Positions 42,432-58,269 of a stretch of 64,000 bases of DNA are shown here, one piece after another; positions within the stretch are counted from its first letter, which is position 1, and every line of letters starts with the position of its first letter. Under the pieces are notes generated by a model that was not told the origin of the DNA, ran no database searches, and was given only the letters and a program-made list of their open reading frames with translations. Both the position numbers and the translations under genes were made by a program. This DNA is from an uncultured Candidatus Saccharibacteria bacterium. GTDB lineage: Bacteria > Patescibacteriota > Dojkabacteria > SC72. Where the stretch lies: positions 253,240 through 317,239 of the forward strand of contig CAZSUV010000001.1 of the NCBI GenBank assembly GCA_964610125.1, written 5' to 3'.

Positions 42432-42746
42432 CTATCTCTGTAAAATTTCTAGGAGTGATTCCTCTGGGGTAATTGAAGCAATTCGGTTCTGCTTCAGTAG
42501 TTCTAAGAGAAAAGTTTTTAATTTCTGAGTTTTCTCTTTTTTATTATCCCCGTCAATTGGAATTAGTGGCTCATTTTCTTTTTTCACCAAAATATCGATG
42601 TTATTAGGAGCTTTATCAATTGCTGATAAAACCTCTGATAATGGGGTGAATTGTAGGAAATATTCTTTCCCAGGCACAACAGATACTTTGACAAAGAGCT
42701 TTTTTCTTTCCATGTGCTTTCTCTCCTCCAGAGTTGTAAATGACAA
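42432..42746 (-). CDS. Hypothetical protein
   Basis: 104 aa. Confidence 0.3.
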   Translation of the reverse strand: MSFTTLEERKHMERKKLFVKVSVVPGKEYFLQFTPLSEVLSAIDKAPNNIDILVKKENEPLIPIDGDNKKEKTQKLKTFLLELLKQNRIASITPEESLLEILQR

Positions 42747-42835
42747 GAAGCCTCATTATACAACCCATAGAAAAGGTATTCAACAAAAAAAGGCAGGATG
42801 TACCTGCCTTTCTGAAATCACCCTTGAGAAACCTT

Positions 42836-43282
42836 TTACTTTATCTCAATCTCCTTAGGTTTAACCTCATTAGCTTTTGGCATCTTTATGGATAGTACTC
42901 CATCCTTAAATTCAGCCTCAGCCTTATCCGGATCTACCTTTGTAGGAAGATTAAATGATTGCTCATATGAAGATTCCATACTTCTGTAGTAATACTTCTT
43001 ACTCTCATCATCCGATTTTTCTTCCTTCTTGGTTTGTCCAGAGATTGTTACACAATCAGCCATAATATTAATCTTTATATCCTCTTTTTTAATACCTGGC
43101 ATAGCCATTTTTACAAATACATCATCTTTCTCTTCCCATAGGTCTGCAGAAAGCGATGGAGTATTAAAGAATGTAGGAGTTTCCCATACAGAAGGAGTAA
43201 AGAAATCATCAAATACCGATCTAATGGGGAAGAATGAAGATCGAAGAGGTCTTTCATTGTTATCTCTTGTTATAATTTTCAT
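42836..43282 (-). CDS. Hsp20/alpha-crystallin small heat-shock protein
   Basis: 148 aa; alpha-crystallin domain pattern (VFVKMAMPGIKKEDIKI...). Confidence 0.85.
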   Translation of the reverse strand: MKIITRDNNERPLRSSFFPIRSVFDDFFTPSVWETPTFFNTPSLSADLWEEKDDVFVKMAMPGIKKEDIKINIMADCVTISGQTKKEEKSDDESKKYYYRSMESSYEQSFNLPTKVDPDKAEAEFKDGVLSIKMPKANEVKPKEIEIK

Positions 43283-43347: not shown

Positions 43348-44112
43348 CTACTTAATCCTGTAATATTCAAATAGATATTGTCCTGCTATACCAGCATATT
43401 TACCAAAATACTCTGTATACCACTTAGATATATCTTCATTCTTTGCATATGGTACTTGGTATATATCCTTAGCTATGTTGTACATCCATCTATCAATTGG
43501 AACTGTATCTAGATATCCAAGAGAGTAGAGTAATATACAATCTGCAACCTTTGGACCAATGCCAGGCATAGAAATTAGTATCTTCCTAATATCTTCCTTC
43601 TTCTTTGGTAATTGTATATCAGAAAGCAATTTAGATGTCTCCTTAAGATATGGAGCCCTGTACCCAATACTAGCCTTTTTAAGGTCCTCTATGGGGGCTA
43701 AGGCTAATGATTTAGGGGTTGGGAAGGTATTGTGTATGGTACCTGGAATTGGTGTCCCATATATTTGAGAGAGTACTCGAATACTTTTTCTAATGGCTGG
43801 GATATTTTTGTTGGTAGCTAGTATATATGATGTGGTTGTTAGGAGGAAATCTTGTTTCAATACTGTTATATTCTTTATGTGTTTTATTGCTTCATCAATA
43901 TGTTTATCCTTATTTATTTCTTTTTTAATGTTTTCATAGTCTAGGTGATTACCTAGATATTCATCCATATCTACCTTTTCATTAATCTGGGTTATCTTTC
44001 CTTGATCAATGATGATTAGGCCATTATGGGTAAAACCGTAATATTTGTTATCAATATAATCCCAGTTAAAGGCTTGACCGCCTAAGAGGGTTGTTTGAAG
44101 GTTTAGGTTCAT
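43348..44112 (-). CDS. HhH-GPD DNA glycosylase (Ogg/AlkA-like N-glycosylase/DNA lyase)
   Basis: 254 aa; HhH plus GPD: ISMPGIGPKVADCILLYSLGYLDTVPIDRWM. Confidence 0.7.
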   Translation of the reverse strand: MNLNLQTTLLGGQAFNWDYIDNKYYGFTHNGLIIIDQGKITQINEKVDMDEYLGNHLDYENIKKEINKDKHIDEAIKHIKNITVLKQDFLLTTTSYILATNKNIPAIRKSIRVLSQIYGTPIPGTIHNTFPTPKSLALAPIEDLKKASIGYRAPYLKETSKLLSDIQLPKKKEDIRKILISMPGIGPKVADCILLYSLGYLDTVPIDRWMYNIAKDIYQVPYAKNEDISKWYTEYFGKYAGIAGQYLFEYYRIK

Positions 44113-44167
44113 GATTGATTATACCGTATTGCCAATATGGAGATATAACGATATATTATAAGTTGTT

Positions 44168-45352
44168 ATGTCAGAAATGGATGCCGAACTACAACAAAAT
44201 TCGAGTGATATAATCTATTCTTCATTTGATCAAGCTGCAATTGAAGAAAAATATTATTGTAAAATAGATATAGATAGGGCTGAACAGGTCCTTTCTGCAG
44301 CGCTTTTCGAATATACCGATAATGAGCTTGGTTTTTTTAAAGAAAAGAATCAGGCGGAAGAAGAATTTATAAATTTCCTTAAAGAACAAAGAGAAACAAA
44401 GCAATTCATAACAACGTTTATCTTTCTAACAAGCATGATAACCTTTGGATCAGATAGTCAGATATTCTATGATACTTTGGTAAGAAAGAAAGGACAGTAT
44501 AAAAACTACCGTTGGCTTTTTGTTCCTGAAGAGGTTTGCAAAAGTAAATTATCTAGAAAAAAACAAAAGTGGGAGAAAGTTAATGGAGGAACGACCCTTT
44601 TCCCCAAAATCTTTATCACAGACCAAATGTTCAATGAACCTGAGGCAAACGGCTTTTTCCCTCATGATGAGGATGCTCTAGATTTTAACAAAGAATGGGA
44701 AAGATATATTGAACCTCACGGTCGTCAGGGAGATGCAATGATAGGGTGGTATCATAATTGTTGTGTTTTACATAAAACCTACCACGACAACATTTTTGAA
44801 TATTTTAATGCACATAATAATGATGCAAAAAAAATTCATGAAGCTTTGATTTTTAAACCCGGAGGAAAAACATCGAATAAAGAATTTAAAAGATTTGATA
44901 AGAAATTAGCTTCGCTATTTCTTCAGTGGGTGGGTAGATATGAGTTATATCCTCTAAGTAATCTAGATGAATTTGGGTTACCTATTGATCTTCATTTGTG
45001 CAGAATTGCTATGCAAACAGGAATTATAAATCCACAAATTGATCTTCCAAGAAAGGTTCTTGCATATGAAGTATTTTGGCCAATTGTAAACTATTTATGT
45101 AAGAAGAATAGTGATAAAGGTTGGAGACCAGCTGCAGTATCCGAAGCTTTGTGGGTTATTGGGAGTAGAGGATGTACACCGGATCAGAATGCATTGGCTC
45201 CATATTATACTTGTCCATTAAAAACGAAATGTATAGGAGCTATAAAGAAATTACCTAACGATGATGCTTTCTACCCAAGCCTTGAGACAATTAGAAAAAA
45301 TAAAAAAATTAATGCGTGGGGAGATTACAAAGAACTTCCATCTGGGAGTTGA
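44168..45352 (+). CDS. Hypothetical protein with HhH-like segment and 4-Cys C-terminal cluster
   Basis: 394 aa; KPGGKTSNKEF...FGLPIDLHLCRIAMQTGI resembles the EndoIII HhH-to-Asp region; C-terminal Cys at YLC, RGC, TCP, KCI. Confidence 0.35.
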   Translation: MSEMDAELQQNSSDIIYSSFDQAAIEEKYYCKIDIDRAEQVLSAALFEYTDNELGFFKEKNQAEEEFINFLKEQRETKQFITTFIFLTSMITFGSDSQIFYDTLVRKKGQYKNYRWLFVPEEVCKSKLSRKKQKWEKVNGGTTLFPKIFITDQMFNEPEANGFFPHDEDALDFNKEWERYIEPHGRQGDAMIGWYHNCCVLHKTYHDNIFEYFNAHNNDAKKIHEALIFKPGGKTSNKEFKRFDKKLASLFLQWVGRYELYPLSNLDEFGLPIDLHLCRIAMQTGIINPQIDLPRKVLAYEVFWPIVNYLCKKNSDKGWRPAAVSEALWVIGSRGCTPDQNALAPYYTCPLKTKCIGAIKKLPNDDAFYPSLETIRKNKKINAWGDYKELPSGS

Positions 45353-45383
45353 TGTAAATAATTATTAGTTATAAGCTAGATGC

Positions 45384-46442
45384 ATGGATATGCCAACTGA
45401 TTTAGAAAAAGAAGTATATGTGCAACCAATGCCTAAGATCTCTTTGAGAGACTTTCTTGAGAGCGCTGATCCTGACATTATACGAAGAGAGACCTTTCTG
45501 GTATCAGTAGAGGATGTAGTTTTTGCAGATAATATACGTCCGTTCGATGGAGAATTCATAGGTGAGTTAGCTAAAAATATTCTTGAGCAAGGACAGCTTC
45601 AAGAATGTATTGGGGATATTATTACAGATGAAAATGGGAATTTAAAAGTTAGAATTATTGCAGGGCAACATAGGAGTATGGCAATAATAAAGATTAATGA
45701 AGACGGAATACCTCTCCCAATTCGTATTAGTGTTGCCAATTGTACACTTTCCCCCGAGAAAGTTATTGAAATCCAAATGTCAGAAAATTTACATAACAAG
45801 ATGACGGCAGCTCAGGATGCAACAATTATTGTTGGGTACTGGAAGCGATACAATGAAATAAAGGAAGAAGCCAAAGAAAGAAAAATGTCTATAACTGACT
45901 TAGCGAGGAAAGTGGGTAGGAGCGTAGATACTGTTAAGAATGCAATAAAGTATGTTGAAGGTTTGAACCCCATCGTACAAAAGATGGTCGATGCAAAACT
46001 TCTTCCATATGGGAATGCAATTCTTCTTACTGAATTAGAACAAGGGGAAGGATATTATGATCAACAGGTGGTTTTGGCTGAACGTTTTGTTCGTGGTCGT
46101 TGGAGTACCAATCAAGCGAAGAAATATATGCAAAAACTTAAAGCAGAGAAACAATTTGCAGGACCACTATTTGGTGAAGCATGGGAGGGAATTAAAGCTG
46201 TACAAAGAATAATTGCAATAAAAACGGAGGCGGATCGTAATGGAAGAAGGGCATCTGGATGGCTTGTTAGTATGATGAAATTAGCAGAAATACTTGCTAA
46301 AAATAATTCTAAAGTTGATGTCTCTGAGGGAATTCAAAATGCTGTTGCTGAGTATGGAATTGGCTATACAGAATTTAAGGAATTTATGCGACCATTTATG
46401 ACAGAACATGATTTTAACAAACTATTTGCAAAAATTAAGTAA
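45384..46442 (+). CDS. ParB/Srx-fold (DGQHR/DUF262-like) N-terminal domain protein with ParB-type HTH
   Basis: 352 aa; VRIIAGQHRSMAI (DGQHR-like); HTH region SITDLARKVGRSVDTVKNAIKYVEGLNPIVQKMVDAKLLPYGNAILL. Confidence 0.6.
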   Translation: MDMPTDLEKEVYVQPMPKISLRDFLESADPDIIRRETFLVSVEDVVFADNIRPFDGEFIGELAKNILEQGQLQECIGDIITDENGNLKVRIIAGQHRSMAIIKINEDGIPLPIRISVANCTLSPEKVIEIQMSENLHNKMTAAQDATIIVGYWKRYNEIKEEAKERKMSITDLARKVGRSVDTVKNAIKYVEGLNPIVQKMVDAKLLPYGNAILLTELEQGEGYYDQQVVLAERFVRGRWSTNQAKKYMQKLKAEKQFAGPLFGEAWEGIKAVQRIIAIKTEADRNGRRASGWLVSMMKLAEILAKNNSKVDVSEGIQNAVAEYGIGYTEFKEFMRPFMTEHDFNKLFAKIK

Positions 46443-46461
46443 ATAGAAGTAAAATTATATT

Positions 46462-46902
46462 ATGAAATCCCTAATCATATATGATTCCTTCTTTGGTAAT
46501 ACCAAATTACTTGCTGAAACCATAGGTAAAGAATTAGGTAATGATACCAAAGTAATACATGTCTCTGACTTTAAACAAGAAGATCTAAAAGGTATAACCC
46601 TATTAATTGTTGGTAGTCCAATCTTAGGCTGGAGACCTTCAGAAAAGACAACAGCCTTCTTAATGAGCTTTGGTAAAGATCAATTAAAAGGTATAAAGGT
46701 CGCAACATTTGATACAAGAGTTAAACTATTTTTCCATGGGGATGCGACTAAAAAAATGTCTGAAATGCTTTCAAATCTAGGAGCCGAAGTCATAGTTGAA
46801 CCAAACTGGTTCATAGTTACCGGTAAGGAAGGACCATTAGCGGACGGAGAACTTGAGAGAGCAAAGGAGTGGGCTAAGAAAATATATGAAATAGTTGATT
46901 AA
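46462..46902 (+). CDS. Flavodoxin-like protein
   Basis: 146 aa; MKSLIIYDSFFGNTKLLAETI. Confidence 0.75.
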   Translation: MKSLIIYDSFFGNTKLLAETIGKELGNDTKVIHVSDFKQEDLKGITLLIVGSPILGWRPSEKTTAFLMSFGKDQLKGIKVATFDTRVKLFFHGDATKKMSEMLSNLGAEVIVEPNWFIVTGKEGPLADGELERAKEWAKKIYEIVD

Positions 46903-48165: not shown

Positions 48166-49032
48166 ATGAGCAATTGGGCAGATTACAAAGTAGGTATGTC
48201 TTCTGAAGAGCTTGAAACATCAGGAATAGCCTTTGAAAGAAAACCTTGGGATATTGAAGGAGAACAATTCATAGGAATGTTATTTTCTGATCTCGTCCCA
48301 ATCCTATTAAAAGAATCTAGATTTTCCTATAATCGCTTCACTCCTCCCGATTGGATAGGTTCATATCAAGGAGGAATAATAGAAGCAACATTGAAATATT
48401 ATGGAATTAATCCTCACGAAGAAACATCTGAAGAACGAAAGACAGGTGAAGGGAAGGAACAGCTATACTGGCCAGTTGCGGTATTACCTGATGGAAGTAT
48501 GCGTGTCCCAGTAGGTACAATTCAAGACCTCTTCGCGGGAGGAGAAGATTCAGCCGTAGCATTAACTTCACGAGTTGTGTTAAATAATTTAAGTAGACCT
48601 GGGGAATATGGTGGAATAGCTCATTTCCCAATGTTAGATATTGTACATAGCCCTACAGAAGAAAATATAAAGTATTTGATAACAGCGGTAAGAGAGAAAT
48701 GTGGGTTAGAAAATTTCTTTGTAATACAATCTTCAGATAATGGAATGATGATTATTGGGGCGGAGCTATTTGATGAAGAGAATTTCGTTGCTTTACTGAT
48801 GGATTCCTTATTAATAAATCATGTAGAAACCAAGGGTATAGATGGTTTCTGGGTAGATGATAGATGGAATGCCCGTAGTACACAAAATGGTGTGGTAGAA
48901 ACTGGTGATAGATTAAATAGATGGAGATTCAATGGTGTATTAAGAATGGTTGCTAGTCTGCCAAATAAACCATGCAGACCATTTGTAAAAGCGGCTTTTT
49001 TAAATGGAGTTGTTTACGGGGTGTCCTGTTAA
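48166..49032 (+). CDS. Hypothetical protein
   Basis: 288 aa; no motif. Confidence 0.4.
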   Translation: MSNWADYKVGMSSEELETSGIAFERKPWDIEGEQFIGMLFSDLVPILLKESRFSYNRFTPPDWIGSYQGGIIEATLKYYGINPHEETSEERKTGEGKEQLYWPVAVLPDGSMRVPVGTIQDLFAGGEDSAVALTSRVVLNNLSRPGEYGGIAHFPMLDIVHSPTEENIKYLITAVREKCGLENFFVIQSSDNGMMIIGAELFDEENFVALLMDSLLINHVETKGIDGFWVDDRWNARSTQNGVVETGDRLNRWRFNGVLRMVASLPNKPCRPFVKAAFLNGVVYGVSC

Positions 49033-49086: not shown

Positions 49087-50274
49087 CTATTCTGTACTAA
49101 GCTTGGGCTTAAAAGCACAAGCTATTAAGGATATTAATCCTAGTACAGCAAATGCTACAAATACTCCTTTGCTATCTACTAGCATTCCTACAAAAGGATT
49201 GAATATTGTAAGCATTAAACGCTTAATCATACTTACAAATGAAAGTACTGTTGCTCTTTGCTCATCCGCAATTTCTTCGTTAATCTCTTTAGACAAGAGG
49301 GTTGGAATTTGTAGTCCAAGTCCACCTGCAAAGATCAGTACGAATAGAATCCCAATGGTATTATGCAGTAACGCTCCCATCAGAAATCCTGTGGCTACGA
49401 GACTGGCTATTAGTATGAATACTAGCTTTGGATTGAGCTTTCTCATTAGGCGAGCAAGAACGAACATAGAGAATACCTCTCCTCCCAAAAGTATGATTCT
49501 ATATACCCCGAATAGACTTTCAGGTACGGAGAGAACTCTCAGCCCTTCTTGGTAAAGCCATATAACAAAGTAGCTTGTTGAACAAAGAAGACTGATATAT
49601 ATGGTTAGTTTTCTTAGATTGATACTACCCCTTAGTATCTTTAAACCTTCCTTTACTGTTTTTAGGTATTCTGGCTTCAAACCATTTCCTTTGGTATCTG
49701 TAGAGGGTATGAAGAATCCATATATTATTAATGCAATGACACTTGGTATGGCACCTAATCTAAATATCTCTTGTATTGTAAATCTGTTACTTACAAAGAT
49801 ATATATGAATGATGCGAGTACCATTCCAACGATATGCATTGTACTGCTAACTAGTGATATGGTTCTAAACCTTTTCTCTATACCGTATCTCTTGGATATA
49901 TCATATACCCAGGCCTCTCTAGCTCCAGATACAAATGCTAAGCCTAGCGCCAGAATGAACTCTGATATGAGGAATAGGTAGATATTTGGATAGAGGGAGT
50001 AGGTTATTGTTCCAATAAAATAGAGGATGTATCCGATGATTACAGAACGTTTTTTGCCATGTACATCTCCGAATACTCCTGTTGGAACCTCAAGTACAAA
50101 TACCCAGAATGTAAACCAACTTTGTATTGTTTGTGTTTGTGTCTGAGATAGGCCTCCCCAATCTCTAAAGAACACTAGTAGTATGGATCCGATTAATTCC
50201 ATTCCAAGGATTAGATCTGCTACCCAGAATAGGTATATTTCCTTGGGCCAACTAAAGATATTTTTTGTTCTCAT
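49087..50274 (-). CDS. MFS transporter
   Basis: 395 aa, 12 TM helices; GVFGDVHGKKRS loop 2-3 motif. Confidence 0.75.
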   Translation of the reverse strand: MRTKNIFSWPKEIYLFWVADLILGMELIGSILLVFFRDWGGLSQTQTQTIQSWFTFWVFVLEVPTGVFGDVHGKKRSVIIGYILYFIGTITYSLYPNIYLFLISEFILALGLAFVSGAREAWVYDISKRYGIEKRFRTISLVSSTMHIVGMVLASFIYIFVSNRFTIQEIFRLGAIPSVIALIIYGFFIPSTDTKGNGLKPEYLKTVKEGLKILRGSINLRKLTIYISLLCSTSYFVIWLYQEGLRVLSVPESLFGVYRIILLGGEVFSMFVLARLMRKLNPKLVFILIASLVATGFLMGALLHNTIGILFVLIFAGGLGLQIPTLLSKEINEEIADEQRATVLSFVSMIKRLMLTIFNPFVGMLVDSKGVFVAFAVLGLISLIACAFKPKLSTE

Positions 50275-51202: not shown

Positions 51203-52270
51203 ATGGTCAAAAACTTAGAGGTTATAAAATTCATTGATCTTTTTGCAGGGATTGGGGGGATTAGAATCGCTTTTGAAAATGTTGGAGCCAAATGTATTTA
51301 TTCTTCCGAGATAGAACCTAATTGTCGTCAAACATACTTTGAGAATTTTGGAGAAGAACCGCATGGTGACATTACGCAAATAGATCCAAAGAATATTCCA
51401 GATCATAACATTCTTTGTGGGGGATTTCCCTGTCAGCCTTTCTCTATTAGCGGAAAACAAAAAGGTTTCCTTGATACTAGGGGGACTTTGTTTTTTAATA
51501 TTATGGAAATAGTAAAAGCTAAAAAGCCAGAGATTGTATTTTTAGAAAATGTTAAGAACTTATCTAAACACGATAGTGGAAATACTTTGAAAGTTATAAT
51601 AAAAGCCCTTGATGATGAAGGATATTCTGTAAAGGTTAAGGTTTTAAACGCAAAAGATTATGGAGTTCCTCAAAATCGTGAAAGAACAATAATAGTAGCC
51701 TCCAGAATTGGAGAATTTGATTTCTCAAAAGTGGAACTAGCCCCAAGGAAACCTGTTATAAAAGATATACTTAGCCAAAGTGAGAAATTTGAATATCTTA
51801 AACCCGAAGAGTATACAATTCTGGATAAAAAATATTGGAAAACACAAATAAGTGGGCTGATTTTCTGTGGATATAGAAATAAAAAAATTAGAACAAATGG
51901 TGTTCGTCCAAATACCGAACATTTATCTAGAGTTCATAAACAACCTAATAGAATATACTATTATGAAGGTACGCACCCAACAATTCCATCACAAGAATTA
52001 TCAGGAAGGTTTTGGATCTATGATGGAAAGAGAGTAAGAAAACTCACTATCAATGAATGCTTCAGATTGATGGGATTCCCTGAAGAATTTAAGAAAATAA
52101 GCTCTACACCTCATTTATATAAACAAATTGGTAATTCTGTTGCGATACCAATGATACAAGCGGTATCATCACAAATAATGTTACAATACTTCCCATATTT
52201 ATATGAGAAAGAAAAAATAAATCTATTTAAAAATCCACAACTATGTATGATGAATATGCTAGAGAATTAG
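51203..52270 (+). CDS. DNA (cytosine-5)-methyltransferase
   Basis: 355 aa; motif I DLFAGIGG; motif IV GGFPCQPFS; motif VI ENVKNL. Confidence 0.92.
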   Translation: MVKNLEVIKFIDLFAGIGGIRIAFENVGAKCIYSSEIEPNCRQTYFENFGEEPHGDITQIDPKNIPDHNILCGGFPCQPFSISGKQKGFLDTRGTLFFNIMEIVKAKKPEIVFLENVKNLSKHDSGNTLKVIIKALDDEGYSVKVKVLNAKDYGVPQNRERTIIVASRIGEFDFSKVELAPRKPVIKDILSQSEKFEYLKPEEYTILDKKYWKTQISGLIFCGYRNKKIRTNGVRPNTEHLSRVHKQPNRIYYYEGTHPTIPSQELSGRFWIYDGKRVRKLTINECFRLMGFPEEFKKISSTPHLYKQIGNSVAIPMIQAVSSQIMLQYFPYLYEKEKINLFKNPQLCMMNMLEN

Positions 52271-53364
52271 GAAGAATTTATGAACAATCATTAAAGAAAG
52301 TAAAAGAAAATGGTTTTTCAGCGATTCCAAACGGAATCTTAGAGCCAACTATGAAAGGGAATATAGAAAAGCTAATAGATAGGGTTGATAATTTTAAAGC
52401 AGTTACAAGTGTTACTATAACAAGTACTCTTAAGAAAATTATTACTCCTGATCAAGATATAAGATTGCATAAAGTAGAATTTGAGAATGGTTATTCAGGG
52501 AGATCATTAGATACGGCTGTGGTTACACCATTTTTGAAGGATAATAATTTGAAATGTATGGCTGAAAGTGGTTGGTTGACTCGTTCATTGGAACAGACCC
52601 ATCCTTTTAGTTTAGATTTCCCTGGTGCTATAAGAGATCAAGAGATCAAGGATGCTTTTCTACAGATTATCAATGATATAGAAACAAAGGGAGCAAATGC
52701 TGAAGCTATTTTGGACTATCTATTGCAGCTTTTAATAATTAAAAGAGAATCGGAAAAAATTGAAATTAGAAAGATTGAAAATGCAGATATATACATATCT
52801 GAAATTATTGAAAAATTAACTAAACATTTCAAAGAAAGCAATTCTTCTGGGACAGCTAGATTGCCGGTATTGGCTGTTTATTCAATTTATGAATGCTTAA
52901 TGAATCAAATAGCTAGATTTCAAGGGAAGGTTCTTAAACCCTTGGAAAGTCATACCTCTGCCGACCTTCGTTCAAACAGTATTGGGGATATTCAGGTTGA
53001 CAATGGAGAGGGAACTCCATTTGAAGGAGTTGAGGTTAAGTATGGGAAGCCAATTACACACTCTATGTTGGAAGATGCATATGGCAAATTTGGATCCCTT
53101 CCTGTAAAAAGATATTACTTGCTGAGTACGGCAGAACCAGAAGAAGATGAGAAAAAACTTATAGAGGATATGATAAGGAAAATAAAGGAAGAACATGGTT
53201 GCCAGGTTATTGTTAATGGTTTACTGCCAACTATTAAGTATTATCTAAGACTTTTGGAGGAACCAACACCATTTTTAAATAAATATACTGAGAATGTACT
53301 AAATGATGAAGTGGTAAAGTTGGAACATAAGCAATTGTGGAAAACAATATTAGAGAACTCTTAA
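52243..53364 (+). CDS. Putative Type II restriction endonuclease (partner of the C5-methyltransferase)
   Basis: 373 aa; overlaps the methyltransferase stop by 28 nt; PD-(D/E)xK-like arrangement D..(11)..EGVEVK. Confidence 0.45.
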   Translation: MYDEYARELGRIYEQSLKKVKENGFSAIPNGILEPTMKGNIEKLIDRVDNFKAVTSVTITSTLKKIITPDQDIRLHKVEFENGYSGRSLDTAVVTPFLKDNNLKCMAESGWLTRSLEQTHPFSLDFPGAIRDQEIKDAFLQIINDIETKGANAEAILDYLLQLLIIKRESEKIEIRKIENADIYISEIIEKLTKHFKESNSSGTARLPVLAVYSIYECLMNQIARFQGKVLKPLESHTSADLRSNSIGDIQVDNGEGTPFEGVEVKYGKPITHSMLEDAYGKFGSLPVKRYYLLSTAEPEEDEKKLIEDMIRKIKEEHGCQVIVNGLLPTIKYYLRLLEEPTPFLNKYTENVLNDEVVKLEHKQLWKTILENS

Positions 53365-53427: not shown

Positions 53428-55272
53428 TTAATCGCAGGATATTTTTGTCCATGAAGTATTTAATGTGAATGAAATCAAATCCTTAATATTCTTTTTTGTT
53501 TCAGCTTCAAGATTATTAAAACTTAGTTTGGATGTTAAACATAAAAACTTGTAAGCCAATGCTTTTTTGTTATATTTTTTTAATATCACAAAAGAGGAGT
53601 TTGACATTTTGTTGTATTTAATAGAATCATCATCCTTCAAATCCTCACCCAGTACATATTTCTGAAAATCTTCTTTTGAAAAGATGTCCTCTATCCCAGA
53701 ATCAGAATTCTTTTTATAAGGAGGAATCGTATACATTGTCTTTGATTCTATTCCATAATCCTCTTCTAGTAATTTACGATAGTTAGTCTTTGAATTTGTA
53801 TCTAAAATAACTTTGAAATTAAGACCTTGAGAAATAACAAAAGGAACAATAGTTAACATTGAGCTATCACCCCGAGCAGGAAGAATATTTGTTATGTTAG
53901 TATTTTTTGTTAGTTTTGCCATCGCTCTAATGTAATATAAATCAGAAAGGCCTTCAGTAATAACGACCTTATCATTGATTTTAAGCTGATTTATATACTT
54001 TAAGCCTATCGCTTCCGCAAGTGGTTGTAGTGAGAGATATTCGCCTTTTTTCGTGATTTCGTTTCTAAAATCGTTATAAACAAGTAATTCGTTGTTGTGA
54101 TCTTTCGTCATTCTTCTAATATTTTCTAAAAGATCATAATCAATCATATATTCTGAATGAGTTGACATAATTACAGTGTTCTTGAGAGATAATTTCTTGA
54201 GATAGTTTAATAAATCAAATTGTGCTGTAGCGTGAAAGCCATTATTCGGTTCGTCAAAAAGTAATATTCCATTATTTATTTCATTCACCTTGGCATAAAG
54301 ATAATAGTGGAATAGAAACTTTGTGTTATCAGATAAATGAAAGAAAAAGGAAGACTTGTTTTGTGTTCTTGTTGTGATTTGCAACCCTTGGTTTCGTCTA
54401 ACGGTAATTTCTAAAAATTTAAACTCAGACTCATTTAGTAATTTCTTTAGTTTATCGTTAAATTCGTTTTCCAAAGTCTCATGTAGATCTTGGTCTGAAC
54501 TTCCTAAATATTTTTTAAGATTTTCAATGCCAAGAAATTCTATGAATGTTCTTATGAGTTCTGGTTGATTATCAAAATCATTGATATTCTCTAGGATAAT
54601 TTGGTTTGGTAAAGAGGCGGTGAAATCAAATTCCTTATCAAAAAAATCTATTTGAGGAAATTGCCTAAATAACAAATTCTCAATTGTCAACGCCGAAAAA
54701 TTTAAAGGGAATGTTCTATTTTCAATTCTAATGAACCTCTTGTCTTGTTGTATATAATTAAACAAATGGTTAATTATCTCAGTTAATGAACTTATTCTCT
54801 CTAAGTATTTGTCATTATTTCCAAATATGTAATCACCATTTTTCAGTTTGATAACAGGAATCTCTTGTCCAAAACCTTTAATAAATTCTTTATATATTGA
54901 CTCTAAAGATAAGAAAAATTCTTGTAAATTAGGATTAGAGTCTATAATGGCTTGGTCAATCCCTATGGGTAAAAATAATTCTTCTTTAATAAATCTTATC
55001 TGTGTTTTTACATCAATATCATTCTTTTTAATCTGGAATACTGCTTCTAATCTTGAATCTTCGCCAGTATCTTTGTAATTTTGAAATGATGGATTGTTCT
55101 CAGGGATTAAATCATATTCAAAATTGCGGATTGCCTTTAATAGGGAGGATTTTCCAGAACTATTTCTTCCAATTATATAATATAATTCTTCCTTATTTTT
55201 TGTTTCAAACTTAATTCCCCCAGAGTCTTTGAAACCAAAACAGTTGTAGATTCGGAATGACTTTAATCTCAT
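53428..55272 (-). CDS. OLD-family ATP-dependent endonuclease (ABC-type ATPase + C-terminal TOPRIM)
   Basis: 614 aa; Walker A GRNSSGKSS; Walker B/D-loop ILLFDEPNNGFHATAQ; TOPRIM VVITEGLSD. Confidence 0.75.
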   Translation of the reverse strand: MRLKSFRIYNCFGFKDSGGIKFETKNKEELYYIIGRNSSGKSSLLKAIRNFEYDLIPENNPSFQNYKDTGEDSRLEAVFQIKKNDIDVKTQIRFIKEELFLPIGIDQAIIDSNPNLQEFFLSLESIYKEFIKGFGQEIPVIKLKNGDYIFGNNDKYLERISSLTEIINHLFNYIQQDKRFIRIENRTFPLNFSALTIENLLFRQFPQIDFFDKEFDFTASLPNQIILENINDFDNQPELIRTFIEFLGIENLKKYLGSSDQDLHETLENEFNDKLKKLLNESEFKFLEITVRRNQGLQITTRTQNKSSFFFHLSDNTKFLFHYYLYAKVNEINNGILLFDEPNNGFHATAQFDLLNYLKKLSLKNTVIMSTHSEYMIDYDLLENIRRMTKDHNNELLVYNDFRNEITKKGEYLSLQPLAEAIGLKYINQLKINDKVVITEGLSDLYYIRAMAKLTKNTNITNILPARGDSSMLTIVPFVISQGLNFKVILDTNSKTNYRKLLEEDYGIESKTMYTIPPYKKNSDSGIEDIFSKEDFQKYVLGEDLKDDDSIKYNKMSNSSFVILKKYNKKALAYKFLCLTSKLSFNNLEAETKKNIKDLISFTLNTSWTKISCD

Positions 55273-57343: not shown

Positions 57344-57742
57344 GTGAAGATCTACTTAGACATTGATGGTGTAATGGTAACTTCTCATCATAAACAAATG
57401 CCATATCTTAAAGAGTTCTTAGACTTGGTATTTACAATATCAAATGGAGAGGTATATTGGTTAACTACTCACTGCCATAATGGAGATAATACAAGAGCTT
57501 TAGACTATCTCCATCTTCAAGTAGACCCAGAGATATATGAAATGTTAAAAAAGCTAAAAGCTACTAAATGGGAAACTCTTAAAACAGAGGGTATTGATTT
57601 GAACGAAGAATTTCTTTGGTTTGATGATAATATATTTGAAGTTGAATACAAAGAATTAGAGAAGGTAGGAAAAGAACATTGTTTGATTAAGGTAAAGGAT
57701 AATTTAGAAGAATTAGTTGAGCTATTAAAGGAGGAAATATGA
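57344..57742 (+). CDS. Mini HAD-superfamily phosphatase (capless, PNKP/NT5C-like)
   Basis: 132 aa with a GTG start; motif I YLDIDGVMV; motif II WLTTH; motif IV WFDDN. Confidence 0.5.
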   Translation: MKIYLDIDGVMVTSHHKQMPYLKEFLDLVFTISNGEVYWLTTHCHNGDNTRALDYLHLQVDPEIYEMLKKLKATKWETLKTEGIDLNEEFLWFDDNIFEVEYKELEKVGKEHCLIKVKDNLEELVELLKEEI

Positions 57743-58269
57743 GAGGTGCAATCATTGGAGATATTGTAGGTTCTACAAGAGAATTTGTTGAAAGAGTAAC
57801 GACAAAGGAATTTGATCTATTTCCCTATGGAAGTACATTCACAGATGATACAGTATTAACAATCTCTGTATATGATGCTTTACATAACCATATCCCATAT
57901 GATGAGGCTTTCATGAAGTGGATAGAGAAGTATCCAAACCGTGGCTACGGAGGTATGTTCTTTCAATGGATTCTTAGTAAAGAAAAGAAGCCATATGGCA
58001 GTAAGGGAAACGGAGCTGCAATGAGGGTATCTGCAGTTGGTTGGCTATTTGATACAGAAAAAGATGTTCTAGATGAAGCTAAGAAATCAGCAGAAATAAC
58101 GCATGATACTGAAGAAGGGATATTCTCAGCTCAGGCAGTAGCTATAGCAATCTATATGGGAAGGAATAAAAGAAGTAAAAAGGAAATAAAGGAATATATA
58201 GAAAAGAATTTCAAATATGATTTAAGTAGGACTATGGATGAAGTAAGGAATGAATATGAGAATTACTAG
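57739..58269 (+). CDS. ADP-ribosylglycohydrolase (ARH/DraG)-family protein, N-terminal half only
   Basis: 176 aa; GAIIGDIVGS, TDDT and GNGAAMR are ARH motifs; the second metal-site half is absent. Confidence 0.5.
   Translation: MRGAIIGDIVGSTREFVERVTTKEFDLFPYGSTFTDDTVLTISVYDALHNHIPYDEAFMKWIEKYPNRGYGGMFFQWILSKEKKPYGSKGNGAAMRVSAVGWLFDTEKDVLDEAKKSAEITHDTEEGIFSAQAVAIAIYMGRNKRSKKEIKEYIEKNFKYDLSRTMDEVRNEYENY

What the first reader, a model, noticed from the sequence alone, without database searches (positions are those of the whole stretch)
44168..46442. Gene pair: HhH/4-Cys-like 394-aa protein + ParB-fold (DGQHR/DUF262-like) HTH protein, next to an HhH-GPD glycosylase
Gene 45384..46442 has a ParB/Srx-fold N-terminal domain with AGQHR in place of chromosomal ParB's GERRxRA. 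This resembles the DGQHR/DUF262 clade linked to DNA-modification/restriction systems (DndB, DpdB, GmrSD N-domain), and it is followed by a bona fide ParB-type HTH. No parA is nearby. Its upstream neighbour (394 aa) carries an EndoIII-like HhH-to-Asp stretch (PGGK...FGLPIDLHLCRIA) and four C-terminal cysteines reminiscent of a [4Fe-4S] loop, but matches no glycosylase family cleanly. A canonical HhH-GPD glycosylase sits just upstream on the opposite strand. Together these suggest a DNA-modification or modified-base recognition/repair module not matching known Dnd/Dpd/GmrSD layouts.
Basis: inference. Interest (0 to 1): 0.6.

Follow-up and report, generated by a model that had tools for sequence, protein, structure and literature searches.

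The report
Hypervariable glycosylase-like plus orphan ParB gene pair
A candidate-phyla (Patescibacteria) bacterium carries a two-gene unit, a very divergent endonuclease-III-like base-excision enzyme followed by a ParB-type DNA-binding switch protein with no ParA, and in close relatives each gene has been swapped for a very different version while the flanking genes stay about 90% identical, which suggests a DNA-targeting module under diversifying selection, not ordinary repair or chromosome partition.

Summary

The 352-aa protein is a ParB/Noc-type protein (profile against Noc, 2e-13). It has a ParB N-domain, the ParB HTH and a helical C-terminal domain. Its Box II reads G-x-H-R. It has no ParA-binding motif, no parA neighbour, and no match to DndB or DUF262.

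The pair lies close together on the same strand in 14 distinct lineages, adjacent in 12 of them, with X identity down to 32%. The OGG neighbour is kept only in close relatives.

Unexpected result: in genomes whose flanking proteins are 87-96% identical, X drops to 43-49% and ParB to 32-50%. The alleles also reassort (X types A/B/C with ParB types 1/1'/2).

Best reading (about 0.45): a ParB-partnered DNA glycosylase module under diversifying selection. Its substrate and biological role are untested.

The parts
44168..45352 (+). X: 394-aa divergent HhH-GPD (EndoIII-like/Qng1-like fold) glycosylase-family protein
44558..44677 (+). X residues 131-170: low-confidence, highly variable insertion
   Evidence: pLDDT below 50. 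Gapped or variable in the alignment. 2-29% identity in the diverged X alleles and distant orthologues, but 86-90% in type-A alleles.
44825..45016 (+). X residues 220-283: HhH element with a 15-residue P231-to-K246 spacer, Lys246 (44903-44905), and Asp274 (44987-44989) in PIDLHLCRIA
   Evidence: D274 is invariant and K246 at least 90% conserved in 63 sequences. In the Cys4 subgroup the segment aligns to EndoIII LPGVGVKTASL...PVDTHVHRV. Codons checked.
45140..45232 (+). X residues 325-355: SEALW (W329) base-pocket helix and Cys loop C336-x2-D339-x9-C349-x5-C355
   Evidence: C336, C349 and C355 are invariant and W329 at least 90% conserved. Collinear with E. coli Nth W178, C187, C197 and C203; a His in most relatives sits at the Nth C194 position.
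45384..46442 (+). Orphan ParB/Noc-type protein, 352 aa
45486..45803 (+). ParB/Srx N-domain (residues 35-140): Box I NIRPFD (R52), C-motif G70, Box II AGQHR (45660-45674), Box III ENLHN (E134, N135)
   Evidence: Invariant N50, R52, G70, G94, H96, E134 and N135. Alignment to Noc. Motif variants across loci.
45804..46439 (+). ParB-type HTH (residues ~141-258) and helical C-terminal domain (~259-352); this part is replaced in L026-type relatives
   Evidence: HTH_ParB covers 161-253. AF2 helices. Against L026 the identity is N-domain 79%, HTH 43%, CTD 26%. DNA similarity to L026 stops at 45820.
44129..44157 (+). Promoter-like site (TTGCCA-17-TATATT) 10 bp upstream of the X start
   Evidence: Consensus scan only, and not enriched over shuffles. 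Inferred operon start.
46462..46902 (+). Short-chain flavodoxin, 19 bp after the ParB-like gene; possible third gene, not hypervariable
   Evidence: Flavodoxin_1 1.2e-9. Follows ParB in L012, L013, L026 and L031. Lies directly upstream of X in L015, which lacks ParB. 87-93% identical in close relatives.
43348..44112 (-). OGG-type HhH-GPD glycosylase; conserved left border of the variable locus, not itself variable
   Evidence: TIGR00588 5.7e-34. 93-94% identical in L012, L026, L029, L031 and L037. Absent next to X in more distant lineages.

Best explanation
X and the ParB-like gene form one co-transcribed, functionally coupled module. X is a catalytically competent member of a previously undescribed, EndoIII-related branch of the HhH-GPD glycosylase superfamily. 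It keeps the Lys/Asp pair at the positions used by bifunctional glycosylase/AP-lyases, an aromatic base-stacking Trp, and a three-Cys metal loop (Fe-S or Zn). The partner is an orphan ParB/Noc-type protein. It most likely binds a nucleotide triphosphate through its retained Box I Arg, Box II Gly/Arg and Box III Glu-Asn, recognises DNA through its ParB HTH, and dimerises through its C-terminal helices. It would then target, load or activate the glycosylase on DNA, much as ParB-fold partners serve other DNA base-processing enzymes (DndB, DpdB, ParB-dependent 5mYOX). Both genes are replaced by deeply divergent alleles between near-identical genomes, so the module is probably under diversifying selection, as expected for a self/non-self or anti-mobile-element function. 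Shown here: fold, conserved residues, domain architecture, synteny, allelic replacement. Inferred: catalysis on DNA, nucleotide binding, physical or functional coupling, biological role.
For: Fold and catalytic residues of X.
Family features that fit DNA binding: canonical G-x-G-P-K hairpins, basic Cys loops and a median pI of 8.6 in relatives. Distant members are named endonuclease III by JGI, or are fused to the YaaA-like DNA-lesion-binding domain DUF6884 (PMC11701544).
ParB/Noc-type architecture with retained nucleotide-pocket residues and no ParA motif.
Operon-like layout: same strand, 12-65 bp gaps, no terminator.
The pair is kept in 14 lineages down to 32% X identity, although upstream and downstream neighbours differ.
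The ParB allele is replaced exactly between the X stop and the flavodoxin start.
The ParB of L012 is 87% identical to that of L031, while their X proteins are 49% identical, so ParB stayed next to X through reassortment.
Flanking proteins are 87-96% identical, against X 43-49% and ParB 32-50%.
Precedent for ParB-fold activators of DNA-modifying enzymes: PMC13229309. Orphan ParBs are widespread: PMC12704722.
Against: There is no biochemical evidence and no complex prediction could be run. X relatives outside this clade stand alone in housekeeping-looking contexts. Three X-clade loci lack ParB nearby (L001, L015, L018), and one ParB-like gene lacks X (L024), so the coupling is not obligatory. 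The window's X has a degenerate HhH hairpin (RFDKK instead of G-x-G-x-K), a non-basic Cys loop and pI 6.3. Its best structural match is Qng1, a nucleotide glycosidase and not a DNA glycosylase. ParB alleles only 34% identical pair with near-identical X, which argues against a tight, allele-specific protein-protein interface. There are no PADLOC hits and no methyltransferase or nuclease inside the module.
Confidence: 0.45

Rival explanations
1. Regulatory link only. The ParB-like protein is a KorB/VirB/Noc-like DNA-binding switch that acts as a transcription regulator or nucleoid-organising factor, possibly autoregulating the operon. X is an ordinary repair glycosylase that needs no partner.
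For: Canonical ParB HTH and KorB/VirB-like structural matches. Orphan ParBs with regulatory roles are known (PMC12704722; VirB, PMC10770331). X relatives function without ParB in other lineages. Very different ParB alleles sit next to the same X.
Against: A housekeeping regulator or repair enzyme is not expected to be replaced by alleles of 32-50% identity between genomes whose flanks are about 90% identical. No palindromic operator was found near the operon. ParB stays next to X through independent allele swaps.
Confidence: 0.2
2. Neighbours by descent only. Two unrelated fast-evolving genes lie side by side in a recombination-prone variable region of Dojkabacteria-like genomes.
For: All pair-bearing loci come from one Patescibacteria lineage. 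The surrounding region is itself variable: HSP20/orf104 are absent in relatives, there are HEAT-gene and 301-aa insertions, the AEP-like gene is present or absent, and MFS is 57-58% identical. A defence cluster lies 5-10 kb away.
Against: Adjacency survives where both flanks differ (HSP20, DUF7483 or other genes upstream; various genes downstream) and down to 32% X identity. The genes are on the same strand with short gaps. The linkage is retained through reassortment.
Confidence: 0.15
3. X is a Qng1-like nucleotide or nucleoside N-glycosidase that salvages a base (7-deazapurine or other). It does not act on DNA. The ParB-fold partner binds or senses the nucleotide.
Against: hhalign against Qng1 gives probability 3%, and there is no PF10343 hit. 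The Qng1 hallmarks Asp-Tyr, Asp298 and the C-terminal carboxylate tail (IFY/IYY) are absent. Qng1 has no conserved EndoIII-type Cys loop. The partner carries a DNA-binding HTH. No tgt or que genes were found among the neighbours scanned.
Confidence: 0.12

Closest known systems
Endonuclease III (Nth) / HhH-GPD [4Fe-4S] DNA glycosylases
   Different: No hit to PF00730 or TIGR01083. X is about 180 residues longer, with an N-terminal extension and a 40-residue disordered insert. There is a 15-residue spacer within the HhH, and the hairpin glycines are lost in the window's protein. Only three Cys are conserved; the fourth ligand position is His in most relatives, Cys in some, and possibly Asp339 here. 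Cys spacing is C-x12-C-x5-C, not C-x6-C-x2-C-x5-C.
Qng1 / DUF2419 queuosine-5'-monophosphate glycosidase
   Different: No sequence-level relationship (hhalign probability 3%). X lacks Tyr after the Asp, Asp298 and the C-terminal carboxylate tail. X has a conserved Cys metal loop. X is paired with a DNA-binding protein.
ParB/Spo0J and Noc (CTP-dependent DNA clamps)
   Same: ParB/Srx N-domain plus ParB HTH plus a C-terminal helical domain. Profile E is 2e-13 to Noc. Box I Arg, C-motif Gly, Box II Gly and last Arg, and Box III Glu-Asn are conserved.
   Different: Box II is G-x-H-R, with the catalytic Glu position variable (Q/R/E/K/D/N). The Box III Arg is missing. There is no ParA-binding motif, no parA, and no parS consensus in the window. 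Scores fall below the TIGR00180 and TIGR04285 cut-offs. The gene is swapped between close relatives, unlike chromosomal parB.
ParB-fold partners of DNA base-modifying enzymes (DndB, DpdB, ParB of ParB-dependent phage 5mYOX thymine dioxygenases)
   Same: A ParB-fold protein encoded next to an enzyme that acts on DNA bases. There are partner-dependent and stand-alone subclasses of the enzyme (PMC13229309). Here the ParB-linked X clade stands beside stand-alone relatives.
   Different: The enzyme here is a glycosylase-fold protein, not a TGT, sulfur-transfer or dioxygenase enzyme. The ParB keeps a canonical HTH, which 5mYOX-ParBs lack. There is no sequence match to DndB/DGQHR or DUF262 models. 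The setting is chromosomal, in Patescibacteria, with no other modification genes.
Restriction or defence glycosylases (R.PabI, Brig1)
   Same: The shared idea is a glycosylase used against foreign DNA. This locus is hypervariable and lies in a variable region near a Type II R-M and an OLD/AbiL-like ATPase.
   Different: The folds are unrelated (HALFPIPE, UDG-like). No cognate methyltransferase is in the module. No PADLOC match and no phage link were found.

Membership tests
HhH-GPD glycosylase superfamily | Two-lobe all-helical fold shared with EndoIII/OGG/AlkA/MutY | tested here: met
HhH-GPD glycosylase superfamily | Helix-hairpin-helix followed by an invariant catalytic Asp | tested here: met
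   D274 is invariant in 63 sequences. The PVD(F/V)(H/Q)V.R motif aligns to EndoIII PVDTHVHRV. The hairpin is canonical (GFGPK) in relatives but degenerate (RFDKK) in the window's protein.
HhH-GPD glycosylase superfamily | Match to Pfam PF00730 at the gathering score | tested here: not met
   No Pfam family at E<=1 for X. One distant relative gives a weak 4.5e-4 hit.
Bifunctional glycosylase/AP-lyase class (Nth, OGG1) | Lys at the HhH position of Nth K120 / OGG1 K249 | tested here: met
   K246 is at least 90% conserved and aligns with the Lys of GVGVK in D. radiodurans EndoIII-1. Lyase chemistry itself was not tested.
Endonuclease III (Nth) family | Cys-x6-Cys-x2-Cys-x5-Cys [4Fe-4S] loop and TIGR01083 membership | tested here: not met
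   X has C336-x12-C349-x5-C355, with only three conserved Cys. No TIGR01083 hit. Metal content is not testable here.
Qng1 / DUF2419 (PF10343) | Sequence membership, Asp-Tyr dyad, Asp298/Trp302 deazaguanine clamp, C-terminal carboxylate tail | tested here: not met
   No PF10343 hit. hhalign probability 3%. X has D274-L275 and S325/E326...W329, and a different C-terminus (features from PMC9881137).
Chromosomal ParB/Spo0J (TIGR00180) | ParB N-domain plus ParB HTH architecture | tested here: met
Chromosomal ParB/Spo0J (TIGR00180) | GERRxRA Box II, ENLQR Box III, model score above cut-off | tested here: not met
   AGQHR and ENLHN. TIGR00180 scores 31.2 bits against a cut-off of 58.45.
Chromosomal ParB/Spo0J (TIGR00180) | parA partner, ParA-binding motif (L/F/I)G(K/R)G(L/F/I), parS nearby | tested here: not met
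   No ParA-type gene in the neighbours scanned (and locus gene calls). The motif is absent in all 10 alleles. No parS within 3 mismatches in the window. The rest of the genome was not available.
Noc (TIGR04285) | Model score above cut-off | tested here: not met
   25.8 bits against a cut-off of 315.
ParB-CTPase switch | CTP (or other NTP) binding and hydrolysis | not testable with these tools
   Pocket residues R52, G70, G94, R97, E134 and N135 are conserved. The catalytic Glu position is variable and the first Arg of RR is an invariant His. Specificity cannot be predicted from sequence (PMC12704722).
DndB / DGQHR / DUF262 (GmrSD N-domain) clade | Match to DndB, DGQHR or DUF262 models | tested here: not met
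   No such family at E<=1 in Pfam, NCBIfam or PADLOC. The nearest relatives are Noc and ParB.
Known anti-phage defence systems (PADLOC-DB 2.0) | Significant match of either protein to a defence-system model | tested here: not met
   Only noise: DndH 0.007 at 11.9 bits, mad1 0.003 on the HTH. Alleles from L031 and L012 give none.

The most novel reading that the evidence does not exclude
The pair is a previously unrecognised two-component conflict system of Patescibacteria. An orphan ParB-type NTP-gated clamp recognises particular DNA (foreign, modified or sequence-specific) and directs or activates a dedicated EndoIII-like glycosylase/lyase to damage or process it. Both components diversify by allele exchange, as in an arms race. 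In effect it would be a 'ParB-guided restriction glycosylase'.
Probability: 0.22. Interest if true: 0.8.

Novelty: new variant of a known kind. Interest (0 to 1): 0.62.

Why it matters
If the coupling is real, the repertoire of ParB-fold partner proteins would extend from DNA-modifying enzymes (Dnd, Dpd, phage 5mYOX) to a base-excision enzyme. It would add an uncharacterised family, mostly from candidate phyla, to the HhH-GPD superfamily, one that sits structurally between EndoIII and the nucleotide glycosidase Qng1. It would also give a concrete, testable example of an orphan ParB whose DNA-binding half is exchanged between strains. The allele-swapping pattern is a rare signature in the small, streamlined genomes of Patescibacteria and may mark a lineage-specific immune or self-recognition system. 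If the genes are merely neighbours, the result is still a new glycosylase family and one more orphan ParB, which is of moderate interest.

Tried and rejected
- Sequence searches of X alone or as a 16-sequence profile against Pfam, NCBIfam, PHROGs, PADLOC and PDB gave nothing meaningful. Only structure and a wider profile placed it.
- hhalign of the 63-sequence family against human plus S. thermophilus Qng1 was not significant, so Qng1 membership was rejected.
- The DGQHR/DUF262/DndB idea was rejected for lack of any hit.
- The canonical chromosomal ParB reading was rejected: motifs, cut-offs, no ParA motif, cassette replacement.
- Phage origin: no relatives of X or ParB in IMG/VR, and only a halovirus EndoIII in BFVD.
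- A search for a parS site or nearby palindromic operator found nothing convincing.
- The AFDB Foldseek library was unavailable.
- Wide alignments were too diverse for contig scans.
- The third word-index search with the wide alignment returned only the known clade.
- Paper PMC3763556 (Iyer 2013) is not held.
- Neighbour genes in the ParB-only locus, in L017 and in L008 gave no informative domains beyond Fic, HEAT and UvrB/UvrC/MutL.
- I could not read model coordinates, so the geometry of the Cys site and the surface charge of the cleft were not examined.
Full report
OBSERVATION. The window has about 34% G+C. Its housekeeping genes include recA, recJ, gltX, ileS, carD and cofD. The closest named relatives of the two proteins come from Candidatus Dojkabacteria and 'Patescibacteria group' MAGs.

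ORF 44168..45352 (+, 394 aa, 'X') and ORF 45384..46442 (+, 352 aa) are present exactly as described, 31 bp apart. A flavodoxin gene follows 19 bp later. An OGG-type glycosylase gene lies divergently upstream at 43348..44112. The quoted peptide motifs are present. A promoter-like site sits just before X, and no terminator-like site separates X from the ParB-like gene. These are consensus scans only.

WHAT X IS. X gives no hit in Pfam, NCBIfam or PDB by sequence, alone or as a 16-sequence profile.

A profile search of 1.84 billion cluster representatives found 242 relatives at E<=1e-3 and 70 at E<=1e-10, nearly all without Pfam domains.

In a 63-sequence alignment with mean column identity 17%, four residues are invariant: D274, C336, C349 and C355. 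K246, W329 and G332 are at least 90% conserved.

Most relatives carry a canonical hairpin (R/G-F-G-P-K), then PVD(F/V)(H/Q)V.R, then ALW.(I/L)GS..C. A subgroup with four Cys gives weak profile hits to D. radiodurans and Bacillus EndoIII and to Thermotoga Ogg2. In those alignments LPGFGPKITSL...PVDVHVQR pairs with LPGVGVKTASL...PVDTHVHR. JGI annotators named members of this subgroup 'endonuclease III'.

Local alignments to E. coli Nth (sequence verified against 2abk) are collinear:
- X 177-210 corresponds to Nth 72-104.
- W329...C336 corresponds to W178...C187.
- C349 and C355 correspond to C197 and C203.
- The His found in most relatives (C-x4-H-x2-C-x5-C) falls at the Nth C194 position.

So K246 and D274 sit at the positions of the catalytic Lys and Asp of bifunctional glycosylase/lyases, and the Cys loop corresponds to the EndoIII iron-sulfur loop. 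In the window's clade the fourth ligand is neither Cys nor His. An invariant Asp339 sits where the four-Cys subgroup has its second Cys. Whether the site holds Fe-S or Zn cannot be decided here.

X is not a Qng1 family member. hhalign against human plus S. thermophilus Qng1 gives probability 3%. The Qng1 hallmarks listed in PMC9881137 (Asp-Tyr, Asp298, C-terminal carboxylate tail) are absent.

X does share some features with Qng1. It has a long spacer within the HhH just before the Lys: 15 residues from P231 to K246, against 17 in StQng1 and 5 in Nth. It also has an (S/D)xxLW motif and an acidic pI. The X clade has pI 5.1-6.3, a hairpin whose Gly is replaced by Asp or Glu in most members, and a Cys loop without net positive charge. 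The rest of the family has median pI 8.6 and basic loops.

Two domain fusions in distant relatives point in different directions:
- DUF6884 is a YaaA-like domain proposed to bind DNA lesions (PMC11701544).
- dTMP kinase points to nucleotide metabolism.

I therefore regard 'acts on DNA' as more likely than 'acts on a free nucleotide', but it is not established.

WHAT THE SECOND PROTEIN IS. Single-sequence hits are weak: HTH_ParB 2e-6, ParB_N 0.016, TIGR00180 1.7e-7 below cut-off, and PHROG 'ParB-like partition protein' 7e-11.

A 19-sequence family profile hits Noc (2e-13), M. xanthus ParB (1.7e-9), B. subtilis Spo0J (1e-8) and the H. pylori, Thermus and Caulobacter ParBs. The match runs over residues 21-248, that is N-domain plus HTH.

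Nucleotide-pocket residues:
- Conserved: N50, R52 (Box I Arg), G70 (C-motif), G94, R97 (Box II), E134 and N135 (Box III).
- Changed: the first Arg of RR is an invariant His, the catalytic Glu position varies (Q, R, E, K, D, N), and the Box III Arg is missing.

Nucleotide binding is therefore plausible, while canonical CTP hydrolysis is doubtful. Kaljevic et al. show that specificity cannot be read from sequence (PMC12704722).

No allele has a ParA-binding motif. No parA is nearby, and no parS-like site occurs in the window. By the definition in PMC12704722 this is an orphan ParB.

SYNTENY. I collected 43 loci. ParB-like genes lie next to or near X in 14 distinct lineages:
- Directly downstream on the same strand (gaps 12-65 bp): the window, L013/L030, L012, L026-28, L029, L031, L016/33/34, L010/11, L004/5/14, L035, L037 and L006/7.
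- One opposite-strand gene inserted between them: L008.
- About 3 kb away, with a Fic gene and three others between: L017/L036 (32% X identity).

ParB is absent within the available flanks in three loci: L001, L015 (where X carries an in-frame stop) and L018. It is also absent near all more distant X relatives, which sit after ftsEX-M23, after rplJL, or beside an integrase.

One ParB-like clade occurs without X, between an RRM gene and uvrB, with uvrC and mutL nearby.

Upstream neighbours differ among pair-bearing loci: OGG, HSP20, DUF7483 and others. OGG is adjacent only in the close relatives.

HYPERVARIABILITY (new). Several contigs come from close relatives of the window's organism. Their flanking proteins compare with the window as follows:
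- CarD 96-99% identical.
- CofD 87-96%.
- PGA_cap 88-93%.
- OGG 93-94%.
- Flavodoxin 87-93%.

Against these same contigs the two genes behave very differently:
- X is 89% (L012), 87% (L026), 84% (L029), 49% (L031) and 43% (L037).
- The ParB-like protein is 34% (L012), 50% (L026), 33% (L031) and 32% (L037).

At the DNA level:
- Window against L012 is 85-89% identical through OGG and X up to position 45380. It shows no similarity across the ParB ORF, and resumes at 46461, one base before the flavodoxin start.
- Against L026, similarity continues through the ParB N-domain to 45820 and is then lost. Domain identities are N-domain 79%, HTH 43% and CTD 26%.
- Against L031 and L037 the flanks are 83-88% identical, but X aligns only in 66-71% patches and ParB not at all.

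The alleles reassort. L012's ParB is 87% identical to L031's and 81% to L037's, although their X proteins are only 49% and 43% identical to L012's. This gives at least three X types: A (window, L012, L013, L026, L029), B (L031) and C (L035, L037). There are at least three ParB types: 1, 1' and 2. The observed combinations are A+1, A+1', A+2, B+2 and C+2.

X types differ from one another as much as X orthologues do between lineages whose flanking proteins are only 46-68% identical. The catalytic residues are kept in all types.

This pattern needs at least two independent allele replacements by recombination. It is not expected for a housekeeping repair enzyme or a chromosomal partition protein. 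The wider region is also plastic:
- Insertions occur between OGG and X (a HEAT-repeat gene in L012, a 301-aa ORF in L031).
- The AEP-like gene is present in some relatives and absent in others.
- The MFS gene is divergent.
- A Type II cytosine methyltransferase and an OLD/AbiL-like ATPase lie 5-10 kb downstream.

MECHANISM. The best-supported reading (confidence about 0.45) is a coupled module. The ParB-type protein binds DNA through its exchangeable HTH/CTD half and is probably nucleotide-gated. It targets, loads or activates the EndoIII-like enzyme, which excises a base and may nick the backbone through K246.

The weakened intrinsic DNA-binding features of the ParB-linked X clade fit a partner-dependent subclass. 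This parallels the ParB-dependent and ParB-independent subclasses of phage thymine dioxygenases (PMC13229309). That parallel is inference.

The allele turnover suggests a conflict or self/non-self role, but nothing here shows defence. There are no PADLOC hits, no phage relatives and no cognate modification gene.

The rivals are a purely regulatory ParB (0.2), neighbours by descent in a variable region (0.15) and a Qng1-like nucleotide glycosidase (0.12).

COMPARISON AND NOVELTY. X is a member of the HhH-GPD superfamily by fold and catalytic motif. It fails the sequence-model tests for PF00730, Nth and Qng1, so it represents an undescribed family. The partner has ParB/Noc architecture but fails the chromosomal ParB, Noc and DndB tests. 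It is an orphan ParB with a G-x-H-R Box II.

I found no paper describing a ParB-glycosylase pairing. The library searched is incomplete.

I rate this a new variant of a known kind: a ParB-fold partner plus an enzyme acting on DNA bases. Interest is 0.62, mostly because of the reassorting hypervariable alleles in a streamlined Patescibacteria genome.

LIMITS.
- There is no biochemistry, no complex modelling, and no access to whole genomes or model coordinates.
- Taxonomy rests on names attached to a few relatives.
- The loci are metagenomic contigs, though each allele combination apart from the window's own is seen on at least two independent contigs.

Noticed in passing
window 51203-53364: A C-5 cytosine DNA methyltransferase (PF00145 1e-95; PADLOC Type II MTase 2.5e-111) overlaps by 28 bp a 373-aa ORF with no family hit. 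The second ORF is probably the cognate restriction endonuclease of a Type II R-M system.
   Followed up: partly
window 53428-55272 (-): A 614-aa AAA_15/AAA_21 ATPase matches AbiLi (1e-17), OLD (4e-16), AriA, PtuA and GajA models. It is an OLD-family defence-type ATPase-nuclease. An ADP-ribosylglycohydrolase fragment lies at 57739-58269. Together with the R-M system this looks like a small defence island 5-12 kb from the pair.
   Followed up: partly
window 48166-49032 (+): A 288-aa ORF has a weak archaeo-eukaryotic-primase-like hit (PF24387, 7e-5, below cut-off). It is present in the window, L031 (88%) and L037 (68%) but absent from L012 and L026, so it is a variable accessory gene.
   Followed up: partly
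window 49087-50274 (-): An MFS transporter is only 57-58% identical in relatives whose other flanking proteins are about 90% identical. This is a second divergent-allele gene in the same region.
   Followed up: no
window 42432-43282 (-): HSP20 and a 104-aa ORF lie between PGA_cap and OGG. They are missing at this position in L012, L026, L031 and L037, although HSP20 sits directly upstream of X in more distant lineages (L004, L010).
   Followed up: partly
L012 8838-9968 (-); L031 7014-7919 (+): Different genes are inserted between OGG and X in close relatives: a 376-aa HEAT-repeat protein in L012 and a 301-aa ORF with no family hit in L031. The OGG-X intergenic region is an insertion hot spot.
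   Followed up: partly
L015 9995-11092: The X homologue is split by an in-frame stop into two ORFs. This locus lacks the ParB-like gene and has flavodoxin directly upstream of X. It may be a decaying copy.
   Followed up: no
proteins P0151/P0193 and P0126 (distant X relatives): Domain fusions occur in distant X relatives. The X-like domain is fused to C-terminal DUF6884 (YaaA-like, proposed DNA-lesion binder) in P0151/P0193. In P0126 an N-terminal dTMP kinase is fused to the X-like domain.
   Followed up: partly
L024 4484-5455: A short (323 aa, AGRHR) ParB-like clade occurs without X. It is convergent with uvrB and lies within 5 kb of uvrC and mutL, which is a DNA-repair neighbourhood.
   Followed up: partly
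window 46462-46902 and L015 9507-9929: Flavodoxin is linked to X in two layouts: X-ParB-Fld, and Fld-X where ParB is absent. This raises the untested possibility of a redox partner for the Cys-loop metal site.
   Followed up: no
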